Origin: Escherichia coli
GTDB taxonomy: Bacteria; Pseudomonadota; Gammaproteobacteria; Enterobacterales; Enterobacteriaceae
Direction: 5' to 3' (one strand)
NCBI RefSeq assembly: GCF_036507355.1
Contig: NZ_AP027877.1
DNA: 64,000 nucleotides
Position 1 is the first letter of the stretch; each line of letters begins with the position of its first letter. Shown here one piece after another: positions 55,260-63,726 of this stretch. The position numbers and the translations under genes are program-made. The notes under the pieces are model-generated. The model searched no databases and was not told the origin of the DNA. It was given only the letters and a program-made list of their open reading frames with translations.

Positions 55260-55626
55260 GATTGTGCTCCTTTTGAAAGATGTCAGTAAAATTAACACAC
55301 ATTGTGAATGTCGTGTGTCCGGTAATGCGTTTTTACGACAATAATGCCTGCTTGAAATTGTAGATATTTGCACTACACCCTTTTAAATAAAGCACCAACA
55401 AATCTTCAAATTGCAGGACATATTCTTCTGCCAATATACCATTAAGAAAACATCAAGTTCCCGGCTTGCCAATTTATTAACGCCCATTATAGACGCTGAA
55501 ACAAGCCACGGACAAAGAAGATGCCAAAATTACCGGCAATGCAGAAAAACTCAACGAACTGTTAGGTTAAATGGATAATTTTGAATTTTGGTTCAATATA
55601 GTGACACTATAAAATTACTTTGTATC

Positions 55627-55649
55627 GGGCAGGTGCCCTGCCCTTTTTT
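55627..55649 (+). terminator. intrinsic terminator-like hairpin in non-coding spacer
   Basis: gggcagg-tgc-cctgccc followed by tttttt. Confidence 0.5.
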
Positions 55650-55712
55650 AGTTAAAAAGGGCTGAAAGAAGAAATACGCATCATTCATGGAAAACTCGCC
55701 GCGATATGGTAA

Positions 55713-56015
55713 TTCGCGGCATGGCAATTAACTTGCCAGTCAGAGGATATTGTTGTCCGTTATGGTAGCGAAGATTTTGCCATCAAACTTTTTAATGCAA
55801 CATTGCCGGAAGCAGAGACGGTAGCAGCCAGAGTGAAACAAGAACTTAAACTGGCAGCTATCCCGCATCAGGCATCTGCTGTTAGTGCGTTCGTTACGGT
55901 TAGTCACGGGATTACCTGGTCTGCTCCCGCCAAAACGGCTGAACAAATTATTTCAGATGCCGACGCCGCGTTATACCGGGCGAAAGCAAGTGGGCGAAAT
56001 CGATGGGCTTTATAA
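55713..56015 (+). pseudogene. C-terminal fragment of a GGDEF-domain diguanylate cyclase (no start codon, N-terminus absent)
   Basis: open frame translating ...EDIVVRYGSEDFAIKLFNATLPEAETVAARVKQEL...DADAALYRAKASGRNRWAL: degenerate RYGGEEF-type motif and typical GGDEF C-terminal end, but only about 100 codons and no upstream ATG. Confidence 0.6.
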
Positions 56016-56078
56016 CTATTAGGGGACTGGCTAGATTACGTATCTTCGCTCTTAACAAGGACTGACGGCAGGGCAAGA

Positions 56079-56570
56079 TTACGAAAGCCCGCTCCCCGCA
56101 AGGACTGACGCCAGATAGTTTCTGTCCATGGCTGCTTTTCGCATCTTATGTCTTAACCCTGCCTTGAATACCTTATCATTCGTCAAAATATTAATAGCAA
56201 TGTGCCGTATCCCTGGAAATAATTCTGCTGCATTTCCTCTTCTTATTTTGCAGTCGTCTTCATTCATTACCACGTCCAGACGCCAGTGCAGCTTATTCTC
56301 CACGTGCCAGTGGTTTCGGATTGCTGTGGCGAACTTCTCTGCGGTTAAATCAGCAGAACTGATATAATATCTGACCGTCATTTCTGGCTCTTTCTTTTGT
56401 TCTGCTATTATGGACCGAAAGGAGACTGCCACGCATAATTTCTTCAGCCCTTTCCATTCAAACGTGAAATCAATAAGTTCATCAGGAACATCGCAAACAA
56501 TATGAAGACGGATTTCTTCTCTGCCGTGACTAAAATGCGAATTATTTAGTACAAAAAAAGCGGCGCACCT
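56079..56570 (-). pseudogene. ISAs1-family (H-repeat-associated) transposase, 3' remnant
   Basis: translation ...[78 protein letters not shown]... matches C-terminal part of YdcC/YhhI-type H-repeat proteins; upstream part missing (upper limit approximate). Confidence 0.7.
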
Positions 56571-56636: not shown

Positions 56637-57092
56637 TCAGGGGTGACATAAATAGAATTTTTTTTCATCCTCAATTGCCCATAACTGATTAATAAAAAAG
56701 TGTTTTTTATCATCTAATAACAAATCATCACATGTAGTAAAATTATTAATATCAAAAAAATCATCAGCACAATTAATTTTTAAATTTAAAAAATAAAGAA
56801 AAATATTATTGATTGATTTGAGTGTAAACCACTTGTCATTAACAAATTTATAGCCAGATGATTTTATAAAATAATAATTATCTCCTGGTATAAAGGCATA
56901 CATATCATTTAAGGTTATACTCAACAAAAAACTACGACCTGGTTTAATAGTATTCCAGCGTTCAGGATTCGTATTAATTTCAAAAGGACATGAACCACCT
57001 AAGTAGTCCAACGTGATATTCCCAGAGTTGATCCTGGATGGTTTTTTGCATATCGCATCATATTCATCTCCTTTTCCATCTTTTACTTTCAT
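56637..57092 (-). CDS. hypothetical protein, AT-rich; candidate immunity/accessory protein
   Basis: 151-aa ORF; start ATG overlaps stop of upstream ORF (ATGA); no recognisable domain. Confidence 0.4.
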   Translation of the reverse strand: MKVKDGKGDEYDAICKKPSRINSGNITLDYLGGSCPFEINTNPERWNTIKPGRSFLLSITLNDMYAFIPGDNYYFIKSSGYKFVNDKWFTLKSINNIFLYFLNLKINCADDFFDINNFTTCDDLLLDDKKHFFINQLWAIEDEKKFYLCHP

Positions 57093-57379
57093 AGGTAGAT
57101 AATATTTAGAAAAAAATACGTGGTAGAGCTATTGTTAGTAAAGGTTATGTTAGCAAAAATCCTGTTATTTTTTTTACTCATAGCTAATTGAGCATTGACA
57201 TCCGCTATATAATTTATATGATTACATTTTTTCTTACACTCATCATAATTTTCGATAGGATAAATTAATGGCCTTCCTTTGATATCTCTCTCAAGCCCAA
57301 ACCCGTATTTTTTTATTAAAACCATTTCATCCGCAGTCGATTGAAAGGAATAGAAAAATATAATATTTACGATTGTCAT
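57089..57379 (-). CDS. hypothetical small protein, candidate immunity protein for the upstream HExxH toxin
   Basis: 96-aa ORF directly downstream of the metallopeptidase-like gene; hydrophobic N-terminus; AT-rich. Confidence 0.35.
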   Translation of the reverse strand: MTIVNIIFFYSFQSTADEMVLIKKYGFGLERDIKGRPLIYPIENYDECKKKCNHINYIADVNAQLAMSKKNNRIFANITFTNNSSTTYFFLNIIYL

Positions 57380-57431
57380 TATTATGATTTTTTTATAGCT
57401 TGCAGCATTAATATATTTCTCGACTTATTAG

Positions 57432-58223
57432 TTAATGGAGAAGTGTTTTTTCTAATTCCGCTATTTTTTTCTTAACTGAATTGCTTAATATTTCATCATT
57501 AATCGAGTCTATCTCACTTTCAATTAATCTTATTTCAAAATATCTTTCTATGTTATATGCATTCTCAAATATTTGATCTTTTTGTTTAGAGATCAGTTTA
57601 GTTGCAATACGGATATGTTCGTCATATGAAACTTCATCCTCTTTGCACGTTGAATATTTATCAGTAGTTGTATAATCCTGTGACCACATACCACCTTTTT
57701 TATTATCCCCATAATACCACTGAATATGAGACATTTCATGACATAAAGTAGCAACATGAGAATCCTTTCCCGTTACTGGATTTTTTTTGCCATCTCTATA
57801 CTCAAATTTTGCGCCTATGTTAATTATATAGGGCATATCCTTACTTGGGCTGACGAATGCTGCAAATTCATTACAACCTGTATAATTTATAAAACTGCTC
57901 ATTGTTAAATCATTAGCTATAATCATTAATCTTCTCACGCCATCCATCATAAGAAATCTAGCATTCATGCGCCTACCTGTATTATGTCCATATTTTCTTA
58001 TATTAACTTCCTTATTTCCTTTAACACCAAAGATCTTACTGAAATAATATTCCTCCTGTGCTCCCCATCTCAAAAGATCATCTGCTCTTTTTATCAAAAC
58101 CAACTTTTGTGCCTTACGAGCCTTATCAATCATTATTTTAAAATGATCAGTTATTTTTTGCTCTTTCACACATTCTTCTGGCTCTGGCTTTGGTTGTCCA
58201 GAAGTTTGATTATTATCGTCCAT
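57432..58223 (-). CDS. HExxH zinc-metallopeptidase-like putative toxin (orphan effector module)
   Basis: ORF 57432..58280; likely start at Met20 (MDDNNQ..., 58223) with SD ggaagga upstream; motif ATLCHEMSHIQWYYGD (HExxH); very AT-rich; sits in T6SS cargo island. Confidence 0.55.
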   Translation of the reverse strand: MDDNNQTSGQPKPEPEECVKEQKITDHFKIMIDKARKAQKLVLIKRADDLLRWGAQEEYYFSKIFGVKGNKEVNIRKYGHNTGRRMNARFLMMDGVRRLMIIANDLTMSSFINYTGCNEFAAFVSPSKDMPYIINIGAKFEYRDGKKNPVTGKDSHVATLCHEMSHIQWYYGDNKKGGMWSQDYTTTDKYSTCKEDEVSYDEHIRIATKLISKQKDQIFENAYNIERYFEIRLIESEIDSINDEILSNSVKKKIAELEKTLLH

Positions 58224-58410
58224 AGTGTCCTTCCATTGAGAGAAAATCATCATTCGCAAATAGCAACTAAAAAGCAGCATTACTTGACCTTTCCCTGCAT
58301 AACAATATTTATAAAATAATACGTTTTATGATCTCACCTTGGGCTCCCAACAAGATAATTTCAGTTTTAAAGACTTTCACGAAAAAAATATAGAAATACC
58401 TCACCACCCT

Positions 58411-58701
58411 TCACTTACCAATTAATCTCACAGGAAATCCAACTTCCTTACCACAAATACAATCCCAAGTAACACCTCCCAAAATTTTTGATACTTTAGG
58501 CTGCAATGGCATTATTGACATTATAAATTTATCAAGTTCTTCGCTATATTTAATTCCCTTTATATTTCTTATTATTGATATTCTAGCAGTAAAGATAGCC
58601 GTCTCTCCATCTACACTAAAAGTGTAATTACAATTTTTTGTAATCTCATCAAATTCAACCGATAACAAATCAATATTATGGTTTGTAAACACTATGCCCA
58701 T
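58411..58701 (-). CDS. small protein, candidate cognate immunity protein
   Basis: 96-aa ORF whose start overlaps the 3' end of the effector gene by 26 nt; no signal peptide evident. Confidence 0.45.
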   Translation of the reverse strand: MGIVFTNHNIDLLSVEFDEITKNCNYTFSVDGETAIFTARISIIRNIKGIKYSEELDKFIMSIMPLQPKVSKILGGVTWDCICGKEVGFPVRLIGK

Positions 58702-60115
58702 TCCATACCTCCTTAAATTCCTGTTCAGTCATCAGATATCGACTCCCTTGATATGGATCATATATTATCACATTCCCAGCATCATCAACACCCTTAACAA
58801 GTACCCAATGCCCTACTTTACTTCCAGAATCCCACATCATTGCTCCCCATGAACCAGTATTACTGAGGGCATATAAACTAGATTCGCTCACTGCATTCCC
58901 TTCCCAGCCGACATCAAATTTATTAAGCTTGTTTGCCAGCGACGTCATAGATGTTAATTCTGTTCCAATTACATTTTGCGTGACAAAAATATACCTATCC
59001 CTAAGCAACATTTCCCCACAGGCCGCTCCACAGCCTGTTAAAGTCAATTGCTTTATTACATTTGAATCTAAAACCTCATCAAATACTGTCCAATTGCCAC
59101 CAGCACCACCTTCTAAAACTACCGGCTCTACAAATACTTTCCCAGAGATATTTTCTTCTGGTATTTTTGCGGGTATCATAAAGCCCCATAAAAAGCTGGC
59201 AAAATGCTCCAGAGCAATCTGATCACCATTATTTGCATCCATTATCATTTTTTTAAGTGCATCCCATGCTTGCCCATTTATCAATGAATCACTAATATTA
59301 AATAAAGCCTGTTCTTTTTCGTTTAAATTTATATTTGCCTGTTCACATAACCCATCTTCGCCTATCGGGCAAGCAACCGTTGCCGTTGCCGTATCTAACA
59401 GAGCATCGAATGTAACTAAGGCTAAATCCGCCACACCATGTAAAGTGGTGATTGCTCCATTCCCCATTTGAGTAAGTGTGTTCTCTACAAACCATTCTCT
59501 AATTTGAGATTTATCTCCTTCAATATCATTCCTGAGAGATTCTCTGATATTCTTTATTGAAAAAAACTCCCCCCATGATTGGTCAGGATCTTTTATTTGG
59601 AATAAATCATTTTTAACCTCAGGTGAAATATCTCCGTCAAAAATATTACCAACAGAGAGGAGATCCTTCAGAAGCAGTAAATCGTGTATTACTTCAGCAG
59701 TCCTTTCATAATTAAAAGTTCTATCAATGACAGAAATCATTGGTGATTTTATTTTGGTATATAATTTACCAAGGCAGTTATGGTTATTAATCCCAACAAC
59801 TGAACCATGATAAGCGACAGGTCTCCCCTCTATTGTTACAGTCGGACTTCCCGTTAAAATAACGCAGTCACCTGTTCCTTGAGATGTACCAGATATGACA
59901 CCTTTACCGGCATTACTTTGAGTTCCAGCAATCACTGAACCAACATTTAAAGCTCTGCATCCACGCGCCCATACCGTTGAACTGTACTGCCTTTCACTAT
60001 CTAAAGTCTGGTAACTGTCAAAAGGAACCTTGTCACCTCCTACTTCACATACATCTGGTGAAGAGCACACGACTTTAAATCTACATTCACCATCCCCGAT
60101 ATGATAGCTACCCAT
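58676..60115 (-). CDS. T6SS effector candidate: N-terminal PAAR-like (DUF4150-type) domain fused to C-terminal papain/C39-like cysteine peptidase domain
   Basis: 479-aa ORF; N-terminus contains SPDVC and GDCVILTGSPTVTIEGRPVAYHGS segments typical of PAAR-like domains; C-terminus has GCGAACGEML (candidate nucleophile Cys) and GHWVLVKGVDDAGNVIIYDPYQG (His/Asp), the order seen in Peptidase_C39-like/papain-fold domains. Confidence 0.6.
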   Translation of the reverse strand: MGSYHIGDGECRFKVVCSSPDVCEVGGDKVPFDSYQTLDSERQYSSTVWARGCRALNVGSVIAGTQSNAGKGVISGTSQGTGDCVILTGSPTVTIEGRPVAYHGSVVGINNHNCLGKLYTKIKSPMISVIDRTFNYERTAEVIHDLLLLKDLLSVGNIFDGDISPEVKNDLFQIKDPDQSWGEFFSIKNIRESLRNDIEGDKSQIREWFVENTLTQMGNGAITTLHGVADLALVTFDALLDTATATVACPIGEDGLCEQANINLNEKEQALFNISDSLINGQAWDALKKMIMDANNGDQIALEHFASFLWGFMIPAKIPEENISGKVFVEPVVLEGGAGGNWTVFDEVLDSNVIKQLTLTGCGAACGEMLLRDRYIFVTQNVIGTELTSMTSLANKLNKFDVGWEGNAVSESSLYALSNTGSWGAMMWDSGSKVGHWVLVKGVDDAGNVIIYDPYQGSRYLMTEQEFKEVWNGHSVYKP

Positions 60116-60698
60116 AATATTTTTTTCCTATACATTCAGGAATAATACAACTCAGCACTCCTTCTTTCATTCCAAAAAAATCAGGTATTGTCAATCTCCA
60201 GGTAAGGTATATTTCCTGTCGATTTAAATCGATAACCATTGTATCCGCAACAGGTAAGAACATATGAGATGTATTATGCTTGGTTTTTAATATAAGTACA
60301 GGTCGTATACCTGGCAATTTTGTCTTAACAACCTGTTCAAATTTAAAAAAACCTTCAAGAGTGATGTTTTCATCGCCAGAGAGAAACCCCGCGTATATCA
60401 TATCCGGATGAGCACTATTGTAGAACCTCTCATCAAAATCATCCGGCAAATAGGGATAGCGCTTTTCACGCCATACTTCATTGTAGGTTCCTGCATACTG
60501 GAGGCGACTTTTCCACCATCGAGATACAGGGCCAACGCCTTGAAAAAAGTCAGATTCCCCATTAAAAATGGTAGCGTTTTCTGACAAAGCAGAGCTGGTT
60601 ATTTGTGGGAGTTTATATTGACAACTTGTATTAAGTTGGGAAATATCAGGATAATATCCACAACCTACAGGGTTTGCTGAAAAAACCAATTTTCCCAT
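60108..60698 (-). CDS. hypothetical protein, possibly 5'-truncated adaptor (DUF2169-like) for the downstream PAAR-like effector
   Basis: 196-aa ORF between vgrG and the PAAR-like effector; frame stays open upstream of the annotated Met without a start; assignment by gene-order analogy only. Confidence 0.3.
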   Translation of the reverse strand: MGKLVFSANPVGCGYYPDISQLNTSCQYKLPQITSSALSENATIFNGESDFFQGVGPVSRWWKSRLQYAGTYNEVWREKRYPYLPDDFDERFYNSAHPDMIYAGFLSGDENITLEGFFKFEQVVKTKLPGIRPVLILKTKHNTSHMFLPVADTMVIDLNRQEIYLTWRLTIPDFFGMKEGVLSCIIPECIGKKYYG

Positions 60699-61517
60699 AC
60701 CATCTGGTTGCCAAATACCACCGTAAGCAAGCTCATAGCGTAGAGGAATATTAATAATTTTATCGTGAGATGCTGATCGTTCGCTACCACAATCTTCTGA
60801 TCATGACTGCCTTCCTTCTTACTCCCAACATTCACCGTCTGACCCACACCCACCGTAATTTTCTGGTTATTGGTTATGGTTTCCGTGTGGTCGTGTTTCA
60901 CCGTCGTCGTCCGGTCATTCAGCACCTCCGTATCCATGTTCTTCTGCGCATGGATATACACCTGCTCATTACTGGTGGCGTCTTCAAACCGCAGCTCGTT
61001 AAATCCGCTTCCTTTATAGGTTTTTGACCGGATGGTCATCTGCGTCTTCGTTCCCGGCAGGTCGCCCGGCGAACGGTTGTCCTCATGGTAGGTCCGCCCC
61101 ATGATTATCGGCTGGTCCGGGTCGCCGTTCAGAAAATCAACAATCACCTCCTGGCCCACCCGCGGTATCGCCAGGTTACCGAACCCCGGCCCCGCCCACG
61201 CCTGCGATACCCGCACCCAGCATGAACTCGCCTCCGTCATCCCGTGATAACGGTCCCAGTGGAACTTCACCCGTACCCGGCCATGTTCATCGCAGAAGAT
61301 TTCCTCTCCCGCAGGCCCGGTGACAATGGCACTCTGCGGCCCGTCCACCTTCGGTTTGCTTTGCAGCCGTGGACGCCACGTCCGGTCCGCCGGTATCACC
61401 TCTAACTGATTTCCCAGCGTGGTTCCTCTCCCTTGGCTGCCGTGCAGCGCCTGCGGCTGGTTTCCTGACAGAATGCTCTGTACCACCTGCCATTCACGGT
61501 TCAGCATCTTCTGCGGA
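60665..61517 (-). pseudogene. vgrG: vgrG (T6SS spike), distal part, downstream of IS insertion; 3' end abruptly AT-rich
   Basis: translation ...PQKMLNREWQVVQSILSGNQPQALHGSQGRGTTLGNQLEVIPADRTWRPRLQSKPKVDGPQSAIVTGPAGEEIFCDEHGRVRVKFHWDR... (gp5-like region); continues the reading frame of the proximal part across the insertion. Confidence 0.85.
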
Positions 61518-61560
61518 TGAGGTGTACTGGCAATAGCGGACACTACCATTTGTTCTTTTT

Positions 61561-62379
61561 TTAAGCAGCCATCTGATGATATTTTTCCCTGAAGGCTGCC
61601 GGGGAGATATTCCCCAGACGAGAGTGACGACGCTGACGATTGTAGAAAATCTCAATGTATTCCCGTATTACTGAGATGGCTTCATCCCGGTTATTAAAAC
61701 GATAGTGGCTCAGGCTCTCATTTTTCAGCGTTCCCCAGAAGCTTTCCATCGGAGCGTTGTCGTAACAGTTACCTTTACGCGACATTGATGTTTTCAGACC
61801 AAACTGCTCCTGTATGACCCGGTAATCGTATGCGCAGTACTGTGAACCTCGATCAGAGTGGTGGATTAGCCCGGCAGGTGGGCGCTGTCTCCTGAGCGCC
61901 ATAAACAGGGCTTTACCTGTCAGCTCTTTTGTCATGCGCTCTCCCATGGCGTAGCCGACAATTTCGCACGTATAAACATCTTTGATGCCAGCGAGGTACA
62001 ACCATCCCTCCTGTGTGGCAACATACGTCAGGTCCGCCACCCAGACCTGATTTGGTGCTGTAGGAGCGAACGTCTGGTTCAGCAGATTTGGCGCAACTGG
62101 CAGATTGTGGTTCGAGTTCGTAGTCGCTCTGAACTTGCGTTTCTGCTTACAGCGTAGCCTTAGCTCCTTACGAAGACGTGCCAGTCGGTCACGACCAACG
62201 ATGATGCCATTCTCTGCCAGCTCCGTCTGGAGCCGCCGGGTTCCATATGTTTCGCGAGTGCGGATATGTGCCACCTTAATCTCCAGTTTTAGCCGCTCAT
62301 CACTTTGTTTTCTGTCTGAGGGTTCATGCTGTACCCAGTTGTAATAACCGCTCCTGGATACACCAAATACCTGACACAT
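61561..62379 (-). CDS. IS3-family transposase OrfB (DDE integrase domain; expressed as OrfAB by -1 frameshift)
   Basis: 272-aa ORF with DDE-type region (...VWVADLTYV...HHSDRGSQY...CYDNAPMESFW...). Confidence 0.85.
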   Translation of the reverse strand: MCQVFGVSRSGYYNWVQHEPSDRKQSDERLKLEIKVAHIRTRETYGTRRLQTELAENGIIVGRDRLARLRKELRLRCKQKRKFRATTNSNHNLPVAPNLLNQTFAPTAPNQVWVADLTYVATQEGWLYLAGIKDVYTCEIVGYAMGERMTKELTGKALFMALRRQRPPAGLIHHSDRGSQYCAYDYRVIQEQFGLKTSMSRKGNCYDNAPMESFWGTLKNESLSHYRFNNRDEAISVIREYIEIFYNRQRRHSRLGNISPAAFREKYHQMAA

Positions 62380-62414
62380 CGCTTCAATGGGAAATTGTTG
62401 TCGCCATTGTTCGA

Positions 62415-62717
62415 TTAACGCGTATTTTTCAGCGACTCCTGTGCAAAATACGCTGTTGCTTTTTTTAATATATCTCGCTCAAGGCGAGCTTCATTTAACG
62501 CCTTACGCAGTTGCAGAATTTCAGATTCCAGTTCAGCCACCGTGCGGGAACCAGGAGTACCGAGCCCTTTTCTGGCGGCGGTAACCCATTGTCCTAAAGT
62601 GCCTTCAGGAAGAGATAATCGGGAAGCGCCTTCACTGATCGAAAGTTGATTTTCAAGAACCGTTCTGACAGCTTCGGCTTTGAACTCTTTAGAGTAACGT
62701 TGGGTTTTTCTGCTCAT
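62415..62717 (-). CDS. IS3-family transposase OrfA (HTH)
   Basis: 100-aa ORF MSRKTQRYSKEFKAEAVRTVLENQLSISEGASRLSLPEGTLGQW...; slippery heptamer at about 62449-62456 near its 3' end. Confidence 0.85.
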   Translation of the reverse strand: MSRKTQRYSKEFKAEAVRTVLENQLSISEGASRLSLPEGTLGQWVTAARKGLGTPGSRTVAELESEILQLRKALNEARLERDILKKATAYFAQESLKNTR

Positions 62718-62781
62718 TATTAGCTCCTTCTGATGCCATTCTATTTCAGGAAGGAGTGTCCGTTAAACTCAGGCTACCTCA

Positions 62782-63707
62782 GGATGCCCCGTCAGCGTAA
62801 ACCGCGTTCCCGGCCACAGCCTCGGCGAATTACTCTGCCCTGTGGCCTTTTCCGCATCACTGCGCAGGCTCTCCATCTGGTACAGCGTGAAATCCTTGCC
62901 GTGCTGCTCATCCTTGAACCTTCCCGGATAATCAAATATTTCATACTGCGCCAGCTGTCCGTTCAGGTTCTCACCCTGCTGCTCATACATCCCCGGCCAG
63001 TCCGGCACCTTAAACGTGTAATCCTGGCTCTGCACCGACGACGGGCGGACATGCGCCTCATAACGGAACATACTGAGACACTCCGTCTCCGCTCCTGCCG
63101 ATGTGTCCGGGTTAAACGGAAGCTCTCCCGCCTGTGACAGCCCCGCCACATCGTCGCACAGCGTCAGCTTCTGCTCCGGACTGTCCGCCGCAAACCGCTC
63201 AAAGAAGAAAATTCCCTCCTCCGCCCACAGCCGGGACAGAAACGCCAGGTCGCTTTCCCCGTACTGGACACAGAACTCCCGCGCCGGATGGTCCTCATAA
63301 AACAGCGGCGTCCACTCCGTGACGCCGTTCTCGTTCAGTAACGTGGCCGATATCGTCCGGATATCCTGCTGCTGGAAGATACGGAAGTTCTGCCGCAGCC
63401 CGCACCGCCATAACGGCGGCTCAATACGCAGGTGATAACGCATCTGCCAGCCGTTATTCTCCTGCATACCAAAACCCGCCACCACGCCGGTGACATAACG
63501 CTGCGCCACTGCGCCCTGCCAGATGGTCAGCGTCGCCTTCTTCTCCAGCAGCATCTCCGCCGTCTGCATAAAAGAGTCGCTGGCAACATCCACACTCATC
63601 ACAAACGGATATGACTGGCTCTGGATTAACCGGAAGCTCACCACTGCAAAGGTGTCCGGCTCCTGGCCGTCAACCTCCAGCGTAAAGCGAAGACCTTTTA
63701 ATGACAT
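62782..63707 (-). pseudogene. vgrG: vgrG (T6SS spike), proximal part (gp27-like), upstream of IS insertion
   Basis: MSLKGLRFTLEVDGQEPDTFAVVSFRLIQSQS... typical VgrG N-terminus; reading frame runs into the IS end (adds EVA then stop). Confidence 0.85.
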
Positions 63708-63726
63708 AAATACCTCTCAGACATAT

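What the first reader, a model, noticed from the sequence alone, without database searches (positions are those of the whole stretch)
61515..62784. Recent IS3-family (IS600-like) insertion splitting vgrG, with intact 3-bp target-site duplication
A 1264-bp element with imperfect terminal inverted repeats, orfA/orfB and an A_AAA_AAG frameshift site interrupts vgrG. The VgrG reading frame is precisely restored if the element plus one copy of the flanking GGA repeat is removed (…LTGHP|QKMLNREW…). This indicates a simple, probably recent transposition that inactivates the spike gene; the distal vgrG fragment could still be translated from a start inside the IS end.
Basis: seen in the sequence. Interest (0 to 1): 0.5.

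Follow-up and report, generated by a model that had tools for sequence, protein, structure and literature searches.

The report
IS600 insertion in decaying vgrG gene
A well-known jumping gene (IS600) has landed in a type VI secretion spike gene of an E. coli strain, and an 802-bp deletion nearby has also damaged that gene, so this is ordinary stepwise gene decay.

Summary
Window 61518-62781 is a complete 1264-bp IS600 copy with its transposase on the minus strand. It is 99.9% identical to IS600 copies in E. coli and is flanked by a GGA duplication at 61515-61517 and 62782-62784. Removing the IS and one GGA gives a 60-nt site identical to the uninterrupted vgrG of E. coli A30 and PapRG-04-4. 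An independent draft assembly contains the same vgrG/IS600 junction, and three others break at it, so it is not an assembly artefact.

About 750 bp downstream, at 60758-60764, an ~802-bp deletion between 7-bp direct repeats (GATAAAA) has removed three things:
- the last 87-99 codons of vgrG;
- the intergenic spacer;
- the first 130 codons of the DUF2169 chaperone gene, leaving an out-of-frame fusion.

Excision would therefore give a 591-aa protein with a 33-aa nonsense tail, not a 648-660-aa VgrG. The IS-internal start for the distal fragment is only a mechanical ORF, with no Shine-Dalgarno sequence and no outward promoter-like site. The slippery run reads A_AAA_AAA_G in the orfA phase.

Neither lesion occurs in 5,426 complete RefSeq E. 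coli genomes, but both recur in several near-identical draft assemblies, so they mark a lineage. This is a known element doing a known thing, and interest is low.

The parts
61518..62781 (-). Complete IS600 copy (1264 bp). The transposase reads on the minus strand, the same direction as vgrG.
   Evidence: The ends are TGAGGT...ACCTCA and the length is 1264 bp. It is 99.9% identical over its full length to PGAP-annotated IS600 copies, and 1,749 records hold a copy covering at least 80% of it. It differs by one nucleotide from the copy in L011. It is the only copy in the window.
61515..61517 (.). Target-site duplication, copy 1 (GGA on the plus strand, TCC in the vgrG sense).
   Evidence: The empty sites in A30 and PapRG-04-4 carry a single GGA.
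62782..62784 (.). Target-site duplication, copy 2 (GGA).
62755..62781 (-). Left terminal inverted repeat of IS600 (the orfA-proximal end).
   Evidence: The two ends were aligned, giving an imperfect match of about 19-20 of 27 nt.
61518..61544 (-). Right terminal inverted repeat of IS600 (the orfB-distal end).
62738..62766 (-). Promoter-like site (TTAACG-17-TAGAAT) inside the left IS end, upstream of orfA. It is a candidate transposase promoter.
   Evidence: It is the only sigma-70-like match in 60600-64000. It is a consensus match only, and the count does not exceed the shuffles.
62415..62717 (-). orfA (100 aa), the HTH DNA-binding protein of IS600.
   Evidence: Pfam HTH_Tnp_1, E = 1.5e-20.
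61561..62379 (-). orfB as delimited by its first ATG (272 aa), the DDE/integrase-core catalytic part. Its frame is open from the slippery site.
   Evidence: Pfam rve E = 3e-26 and HTH_21 E = 1.5e-13. It is in the -1 frame relative to orfA.
62459..62466 (-). Slippery run A7G (A_AAA_AAA_G in the orfA phase). A -1 shift here gives the 385-aa OrfAB transposase encoded by 61561-62717.
   Evidence: Frame analysis and the fusion translation are. PGAP annotates the identical-length CDS in L011 as a 'programmed frameshift'.
62417..62457 (-). Predicted RNA hairpin 2 nt downstream of the slippery run. It is a possible frameshift stimulator.
   Evidence: MFE fold, z = -2.1 against shuffles. The evidence is weak.
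62769..63707 (-). vgrG 5' fragment: VgrG residues 1-309 plus 3 IS-encoded residues (EVA) and a stop inside the IS end.
   Evidence: Pfam Phage_GPD, profile positions 6-283 of 305, E = 2e-73. It is 97% identical to the A30 and PapRG VgrG.
60765..61517 (-). vgrG middle fragment (residues 310-558): the end of the gp27-like domain, the OB-fold and part of the gp5-like beta-helix.
   Evidence: Pfam Phage_base_V and Gp5_trimer_C (profile positions 1-96 of 112). It matches 238 of 249 residues of the intact alleles.
60758..60764 (-). Junction of an ~802-bp deletion. One copy of the 7-bp repeat GATAAAA (minus-strand sense) is left. In intact alleles the repeat occurs once in the vgrG 3' part and once in DUF2169.
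   Evidence: BLAST against L001 and L012 and the three-way alignment. No complete E. coli genome carries this junction.
60108..60764 (-). DUF2169 chaperone gene remnant. It lacks its first 130 codons, and the first ATG gives a 196-aa ORF (60108-60698).
   Evidence: Pfam DUF2169, profile positions 137-294 of 294 only.
60665..61549 (-). Mechanical 294-aa ORF: an ATG inside the IS right end, then VgrG residues 308-558, then a 33-aa out-of-frame tail. It is annotated 'hypothetical protein VEE46_22560' in GenBank.
   Evidence: There is no SD-like sequence in the 20 nt upstream and no outward promoter-like site.
58676..60115 (-). Intact cargo effector (479 aa): an N-terminal PAAR-like (DUF4150/PIPY) domain and a C-terminal peptidase C39-like domain.
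   Evidence: Pfam Tox-PAAR-like and Peptidase_C39. The exact protein is on record in E. coli.
58411..58701 (-). 96-aa ORF overlapping the effector's 3' end. It is a candidate immunity protein, inferred from its position only.
   Evidence: It is conserved next to the effector in all related loci. It has no Pfam match.
63722..64000 (-). Canonical PAAR gene upstream of vgrG, the first gene of the module. Its 5' end is cut by the window edge.
   Evidence: The translation shows two PAAR motifs. It corresponds to the 'type VI secretion system PAAR protein' in A30 and PapRG.

Best explanation
A complete, apparently functional copy of IS600 (IS3 family) transposed into codon 309/310 of an auxiliary vgrG gene. 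The gene sits in the ansP-yncG / pptA island of an E. coli chromosome, the locus that holds rhsE in K-12. The module there reads PAAR - vgrG - DUF2169 - PAAR-like/C39 effector - immunity candidate.

The insertion was a simple cut/copy-and-paste event that duplicated 3 bp (GGA). IS600 would make its transposase by -1 ribosomal slippage on an A7G run that joins orfA to orfB.

The same vgrG also carries an independent ~802-bp deletion between two 7-bp direct repeats (GATAAAA), typical of replication slippage or illegitimate recombination. It removes the VgrG needle tip and the N-terminal 130 residues of the DUF2169 chaperone. The module therefore has two independent lesions, and the effector and immunity-candidate genes are still intact. 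In this module the effector can no longer be mounted on a spike.

Shown: the element's identity, boundaries, target-site duplication and empty site; the deletion and its microhomology; and the presence of the left junction in an independent assembly. Inferred: loss of function of the module, the mechanism of the deletion, and the frameshift mechanism, which is taken from the sequence and from PGAP's annotation of identical copies.
For: IS identity:
- 99.9% over 1264 bp to IS600 copies.
- PGAP annotates the same CDS as a 'programmed frameshift'.
- One nucleotide (one amino acid, S277R) differs from the L011 copy, and there are no stops.
- Pfam HTH_Tnp_1, HTH_21 and rve.

Boundaries and empty site:
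- The excised sequence is identical over 60 nt to the empty sites in A30 and PapRG-04-4.
- The 25 listed rows of the 297 genomes that match the excised query show no break at the insertion site.

Not an artefact:
- L002 (GCA_905398585.1) runs 77 nt into the IS across the same junction.
- L003, L005 and L006 end at 61515-61519.

Deletion:
-.
- The best intact homologues cover only 95% of the restored ORF, so its tail is not VgrG.

Function of DUF2169: it is required for PIPY (DUF4150) effectors to form a spike complex with VgrG (PMC11883445).

IS600 target: a 3-nt target sequence was reported for an IS600 insertion in lacZ (PMC9397093).
Against: - Nothing contradicts the structural description.
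- Functional loss is inferred, not measured. Other vgrG or DUF2169 paralogues elsewhere in the genome, outside the window, might still deliver the effector.
- The right-hand junction (62781/62782) is seen only in the window itself. A scan of JGI metagenome contigs for it found nothing.
Confidence: 0.93

Rival explanations
1. The IS insertion is the single, recent inactivating event, and precise excision would regenerate a working spike gene.
For: The junction frame is restored exactly. The target-site duplication is intact. The IS differs from other copies by 1 nt. [quoted passage not shown]
Against: The 802-bp deletion removes 87-99 C-terminal VgrG residues and 130 N-terminal DUF2169 residues and shifts the frame. 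The excised allele would encode 591 aa with a 33-aa nonsense tail. All contigs that carry this exact effector also carry the deletion.
Confidence: 0.04
2. The IS placement is an assembly artefact, with a repeat collapsed or misjoined inside vgrG.
For: IS600 is multicopy in many E. coli genomes, with up to 43 places per genome. Such repeats often break or misjoin assemblies.
Against: The source is a 4.64-Mb single contig. An independent assembly (L002) reads through the left junction. Three others stop exactly at it, as expected for a true repeat boundary. The perfect 3-bp duplication and the exact empty site would not arise from a misjoin.
Confidence: 0.01
3. The insertion has been co-opted. 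Transcription from the IS, or through it, keeps the downstream effector and immunity genes expressed, and the IS-initiated 294-aa ORF is a real product.
For: The IS is co-oriented with the operon. No terminator-like site lies on the minus strand between orfB and the distal genes. An ATG lies 11 nt after the orfB stop codon and is in frame with vgrG. The effector and the immunity candidate are intact.
Against: There is no outward promoter-like site and no SD-like sequence. The 294-aa product lacks profile positions 6-283 of 305 of the gp27-like hub domain and also the needle tip. Any same-orientation IS600 insertion in this frame would create such an ORF by chance. There are no expression data.
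Confidence: 0.05

Closest known systems
IS600 (IS3 family, IS3 group), as found in Shigella and E. coli
   Same: The length is 1264 bp, with TG...CA ends and imperfect inverted repeats. orfA and orfB are joined by a -1 frameshift on an A-run, the transposase has a DDE (rve) domain, and the target duplication is 3 bp. The copy is 99.9% identical in nucleotides to PGAP-labelled copies.
   Different: One private nucleotide change (IS position 894, OrfAB S277R) separates it from every copy listed at 99.9%. Otherwise there is no difference, so it is a copy of the element and not a variant.
IS600 insertion in lacZ of STEC O121:H19, reversible by the IS-excision enhancer (PMC9397093)
   Same: The same IS interrupts a chromosomal gene with a 3-nt target repeat, and the insertion is fixed in a lineage.
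   Different: In lacZ, excision restores function. Here a second lesion makes excision insufficient. Whether iee is present in this genome is unknown, because it lies outside the window.
VgrG-DUF2169-PIPY (DUF4150) effector modules (Sachar et al. 2025, PMC11883445)
   Same: The gene order is vgrG, then DUF2169, then a PAAR-like effector, then a small downstream ORF. Intact versions of this exact module occur in E. coli A30 and PapRG-04-4.
   Different: In the window, vgrG is split by the IS. In addition, the vgrG 3' end and the DUF2169 5' end are deleted.
IS-driven pseudogenisation in E. coli/Shigella (Hawkey et al. 2020, PMC7373316)
   Same: A multicopy IS interrupts an accessory gene and further decay accompanies it. 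Only the title and abstract of this paper were seen.
   Different: This host is an E. coli with a single IS600 copy in 64 kb. It is not an IS-expanded Shigella genome.

Membership tests
IS3 family insertion sequence | Length about 1.2-1.55 kb with terminal inverted repeats ending 5'-TG...CA-3'. | tested here: met
   The element is 1264 bp with ends TGAGGT...ACCTCA and imperfect inverted repeats.
IS3 family insertion sequence | Two consecutive, partly overlapping ORFs, with orfB in the -1 frame and an A-rich slippery motif in the overlap. | tested here: met
   orfA is at IS positions 65-367 and orfB is in the -1 frame. The A7G run is at IS 316-323, and the fusion gives a 385-aa OrfAB without stops. 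Frameshifting itself was not assayed.
IS3 family insertion sequence | DDE transposase with an integrase-core (rve) domain, and an HTH domain in OrfA. | tested here: met
   Pfam rve 3e-26, HTH_21 1.5e-13 and HTH_Tnp_1 1.5e-20.
IS3 family insertion sequence | Short target-site duplication (3-5 bp; 3 bp for IS600). | tested here: met
   GGA lies on both sides and once in two empty sites. A 3-nt target for IS600 is stated in PMC9397093.
IS600 (same element, not merely the same family) | More than 95% nucleotide identity to the reference IS600. | tested here: met
   99.9% over the full length to copies that PGAP names 'IS3-like element IS600 family transposase'. The ISfinder entry itself could not be consulted.
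IS600 (same element, not merely the same family) | Transposition activity of this copy. | not testable with these tools
   The ORFs and ends are intact and there is one amino-acid change, S277R. Activity would need a mating-out or papillation assay.
VgrG / TssI spike protein | gp27-like hub domain (Phage_GPD), followed by an OB-fold (Phage_base_V) and a gp5-like beta-helix. | tested here: met
   The three domains are found, distributed over the two fragments. The fragments are 94-97% identical to annotated E. coli VgrG proteins.
VgrG / TssI spike protein | Continuous full-length ORF, about 640-660 aa in this subfamily, including the C-terminal needle tip. | tested here: not met
   The gene is split at codon 309/310 by the IS and truncated after residue 558 by the deletion. 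Intact alleles are 648 and 660 aa. It is therefore a pseudogene, not a functional member.
DUF2169 T6SS chaperone | Full DUF2169 domain (Pfam PF09937, 294 profile positions). | tested here: not met
   Only profile positions 137-294 remain, and 130 N-terminal codons are deleted.

The most novel reading that the evidence does not exclude
The split might mimic the two-polypeptide phage T4 arrangement (gp27 plus gp5). The N-terminal 312-aa hub fragment and an IS-initiated C-terminal fragment would be made separately and would reassemble into a working, or dominant-negative, spike. Alternatively, the IS600 insertion might act as a reversible excision switch on this effector module. Neither reading is strictly excluded, because there are no expression or genome-wide data.
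Probability: 0.02. Interest if true: 0.55.

Novelty: already known. Interest (0 to 1): 0.1.

Why it matters
The finding matters little beyond annotation.
- It shows that this auxiliary T6SS module should be annotated as a two-hit pseudogene cluster (vgrG and DUF2169) with a retained effector gene and candidate immunity gene.
- The GenBank 'hypothetical proteins' VEE46_22550 and VEE46_22560 are gene remnants.
- The IS600 junction and the deletion junction are absent from 5,426 complete E. coli genomes. They are therefore convenient lineage markers for this poorly represented E. coli clone.
- The case is also a caution for in-silico excision tests. A frame restored at the junction does not show that the gene is restored.

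Tried and rejected
- Exact-protein look-ups for the 312-aa N-terminal fragment and for the 591-aa in-silico excised VgrG found nothing on record. No deletion-only allele was identified.
- Members of the 90% cluster of the 294-aa ORF were read to find an IS-only allele, meaning the prefix MVVSAIASTPHP followed by an intact C-terminus. None had it. The order of the two lesions therefore stays unresolved.
- A homology search with the excised protein gave only cluster representatives at 97% identity or less. None was 591 aa.
- Searches of the complete E. coli genomes for the IS-containing junction and for the deletion junction gave 0 genomes each.
- A scan of JGI metagenome contigs for the right-hand junction gave 0 hits.
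- Literature searches for an explicit 'IS600 target site duplication' statement failed twice. The 3-nt target was then found in PMC9397093.
- I first suspected Shigella as the source because of IS600. I rejected this because the proteins are on record as E. coli (BED22486-8).
- I considered an IS-mediated adjacent deletion and rejected it. The deletion junction lies about 750 bp from the IS end and has its own 7-bp microhomology.
Full report
**What is in the sequence**

Reading 59,500-64,000 and listing the ORFs shows everything on the minus strand:
- a 312-aa ORF (62769-63707) ending ...RFTLTGHPEVA*;
- two transposase ORFs (62415-62717 and 61561-62379);
- a 294-aa ORF (60665-61549) that begins MVVSAIASTPHPQKMLNREW...

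The element between the two vgrG parts spans exactly 61518-62781, which is 1264 bp. Its ends are TGAGGT...ACCTCA with imperfect inverted repeats. GGA lies directly outside each end, at 61515-61517 and 62782-62784. The finding's coordinates (61515-62784) are therefore the IS plus both copies of the duplication.

**Identity of the element**

- The 1264 bp match E. coli copies that PGAP annotates as 'IS3-like element IS600 family transposase' at 99.9% over their full length. In total, 1,749 records hold a copy covering at least 80% of it.
- In one such record the CDS is flagged 'programmed frameshift' and has the same length as here.
- Against that copy the window's IS differs at one nucleotide (IS position 894). 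This changes OrfAB residue 277 from S to R, and there are no stops.
- Pfam finds HTH_Tnp_1 in orfA, and HTH_21 plus rve (also rve_2 and rve_3) in orfB.
- orfB is in the -1 frame relative to orfA. The overlap contains an A7G run at IS 316-323 (window 62459-62466).
- In the orfA phase the codons are TTA AAA AAA GCA.
- A hairpin is predicted 2 nt downstream, with z = -2.1. This is weak evidence.
- The only sigma-70-like site in 60,600-64,000 lies in the left IS end, upstream of orfA.

**Is it a true simple insertion?**

Deleting the IS and one GGA gives ...CTTCTGCGGATGCCCCGTC.... This is identical over 60 nt to the uninterrupted vgrG of E. coli A30 (L001) and PapRG-04-4 (L012), each of which has a single GGA. 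The frame at the junction reads ...LTGHP|QKMLNREW....

The BLAST pieces overlap by 5 nt rather than 3. This is because the terminal CA of the IS happens to match the CA that precedes TCC in the target. Other IS600 copies also end in CCTCA, so the duplication is 3 bp. That fits the 3-nt IS600 target reported for the lacZ insertion in O121:H19 (PMC9397093).

**Is it an assembly artefact?**

Nine related contigs carry the identical 479-aa effector, and they come from independent assemblies and sequencing runs.
- L002 (GCA_905398585.1) aligns in one piece from window 61594 to 50676. It therefore reads 77 nt into the IS across the same junction.
- L003, L005 and L006 end at 61515-61519, exactly at the repeat boundary.
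- The window itself comes from a 4.64-Mb E. coli contig (BED22486-BED22488).

The insertion is real and is shared by a clone whose flanks are 99.84-100% identical. No place in any of the 5,426 complete RefSeq E. coli genomes covers the IS-containing junction.

The excised sequence maps to other E. coli genomes in two pieces that span about 3,295 bp in those genomes, against 2,493 bp of query. Alignment to A30 and PapRG-04-4 places an ~802-bp deletion at window 60758-60764.

The 7-bp sequence GATAAAA occurs once in the vgrG 3' region and once inside DUF2169 in intact alleles. The window keeps a single copy at the junction. This is the signature of slippage or illegitimate recombination between short direct repeats. 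The junction lies about 750 bp from the IS end, so it is not an IS-adjacent deletion.

The consequences are as follows:
- VgrG matches intact alleles up to ...VVANDQHLTIK (residue 558) and then runs 33 codons out of frame through DUF2169 sequence to a stop at 60665.
- Intact alleles are 648 aa (A30) and 660 aa (PapRG), so 87-99 C-terminal residues are missing.
- DUF2169 is 348 aa when intact. It has lost its first 130 codons, and only Pfam profile positions 137-294 of 294 remain.

The homology search agrees. Intact homologues cover 95% of the 591-aa 'restored' ORF, and none of the listed proteins is 591 aa. No complete E. coli genome has the deletion junction. All nine related contigs align across it.

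**Context**

The locus lies between pptA/ydcC and yncG/ansP. To my knowledge this is the position of rhsE in K-12. The intact module in A30 and PapRG-04-4 is PAAR - vgrG - DUF2169 - PAAR-like effector - small ORF.

In the window:
- The upstream PAAR gene (63722 to beyond 64000) is cut by the window edge.
- The effector (58676-60115; Tox-PAAR-like plus Peptidase_C39) is intact.
- The overlapping 96-aa ORF is also intact.

DUF2169 proteins are required for PIPY/DUF4150 ('PAAR-like') effectors to form a spike complex with VgrG (PMC11883445). Removing the IS would therefore not give a working module. Loss of function is my inference. Paralogues elsewhere in the genome cannot be assessed from the window.

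**The suggested translation of the distal fragment**

- The ATG at 61549 lies 11 nt after the orfB stop codon. The upstream sequence (GCTGCTTAAAAAAAGAACAA) has no GGAG or GAGG-like Shine-Dalgarno motif.
- No promoter-like site points outward.
- The product would lack most of the gp27-like hub, because Phage_GPD profile positions 6-283 of 305 sit in the other fragment. It would also lack the needle tip.
- The ORF exists and was annotated as a hypothetical protein in GenBank. I treat it as a by-product of the insertion frame.

**Order and age of the two lesions**

I looked for deletion-only and IS-only alleles by exact protein look-up, by reading cluster members and by homology search. I found none, so the order is unresolved.

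A relatively recent origin is supported by the following:
- the intact target-site duplication;
- the near-identity of the IS to other copies;
- the absence of further stops in either vgrG fragment;
- the restriction of both junctions to one clone.

Even so, this is a lineage-level state, not a single-isolate event.

**Verdict**

This is a copy of a known IS doing a known thing in a known kind of gene, plus a second ordinary lesion. Novelty is 'already known' and interest is low.

Noticed in passing
window 1-60200 (core genes yddA...dosP...fdnGHI...narUZYWV): Core chromosomal DNA is at best 98.2-99.1% identical to any of 5,426 complete RefSeq E. coli genomes. The closest genomes include baboon and deer isolates. 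The host lineage is poorly represented among finished genomes.
   Followed up: partly
window 55560-56432: About 510 bp is extra relative to PapRG-04-4. It is a GGDEF-domain gene remnant (ORF 55803-56015, plus strand) next to a truncated ISAs1/ydcC (H-repeat) transposase (56079-56432, minus strand). The same arrangement over at least 80% of the probe occurs in only two complete genomes. In the one examined (OkiPb01695) the locus carries an Rhs element. This suggests past cargo swapping at this island.
   Followed up: partly
window 35650-38697 (-): fdnG appears as two ORFs (803 and 195 aa) in the mechanical ORF list. The break is the in-frame TGA at 38110-38112 (ARV*HGP), which is the selenocysteine codon and not a pseudogene lesion.
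   Followed up: yes
window 56637-58280 (-): Downstream of the effector/immunity pair lie an M35-peptidase-like ORF and two small ORFs of 96 and 151 aa with no Pfam match tested. The M35-like ORF is 282 aa here and 263 aa in most E. coli, and the PapRG-04-4 copy is annotated as frameshifted. These may be a second, orphan effector/immunity set.
   Followed up: no
window 61888 (IS position 894): This IS600 copy carries a nucleotide (A, giving OrfAB R277 instead of S) that the compared L011 copy lacks. No copy was listed above 99.9%, so the change may be private. It may be a lineage-specific IS600 variant, or a mutation acquired after insertion.
   Followed up: partly
window 60758-61519 versus 62782-64000: The vgrG middle part is only 92.8-93.6% identical in nucleotides to A30 and PapRG, while the 5' part is 97.1% identical. 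This is consistent with mosaic recombination among vgrG paralogues. Several draft contigs break at about 60950 inside this region.
   Followed up: no
window 41333-43914 (+): Two large ORFs (421 and 424 aa) lie next to an ompC-like porin gene. They correspond to 'leucine-rich repeat domain-containing protein' genes that are fragmented in PapRG-04-4.
   Followed up: no
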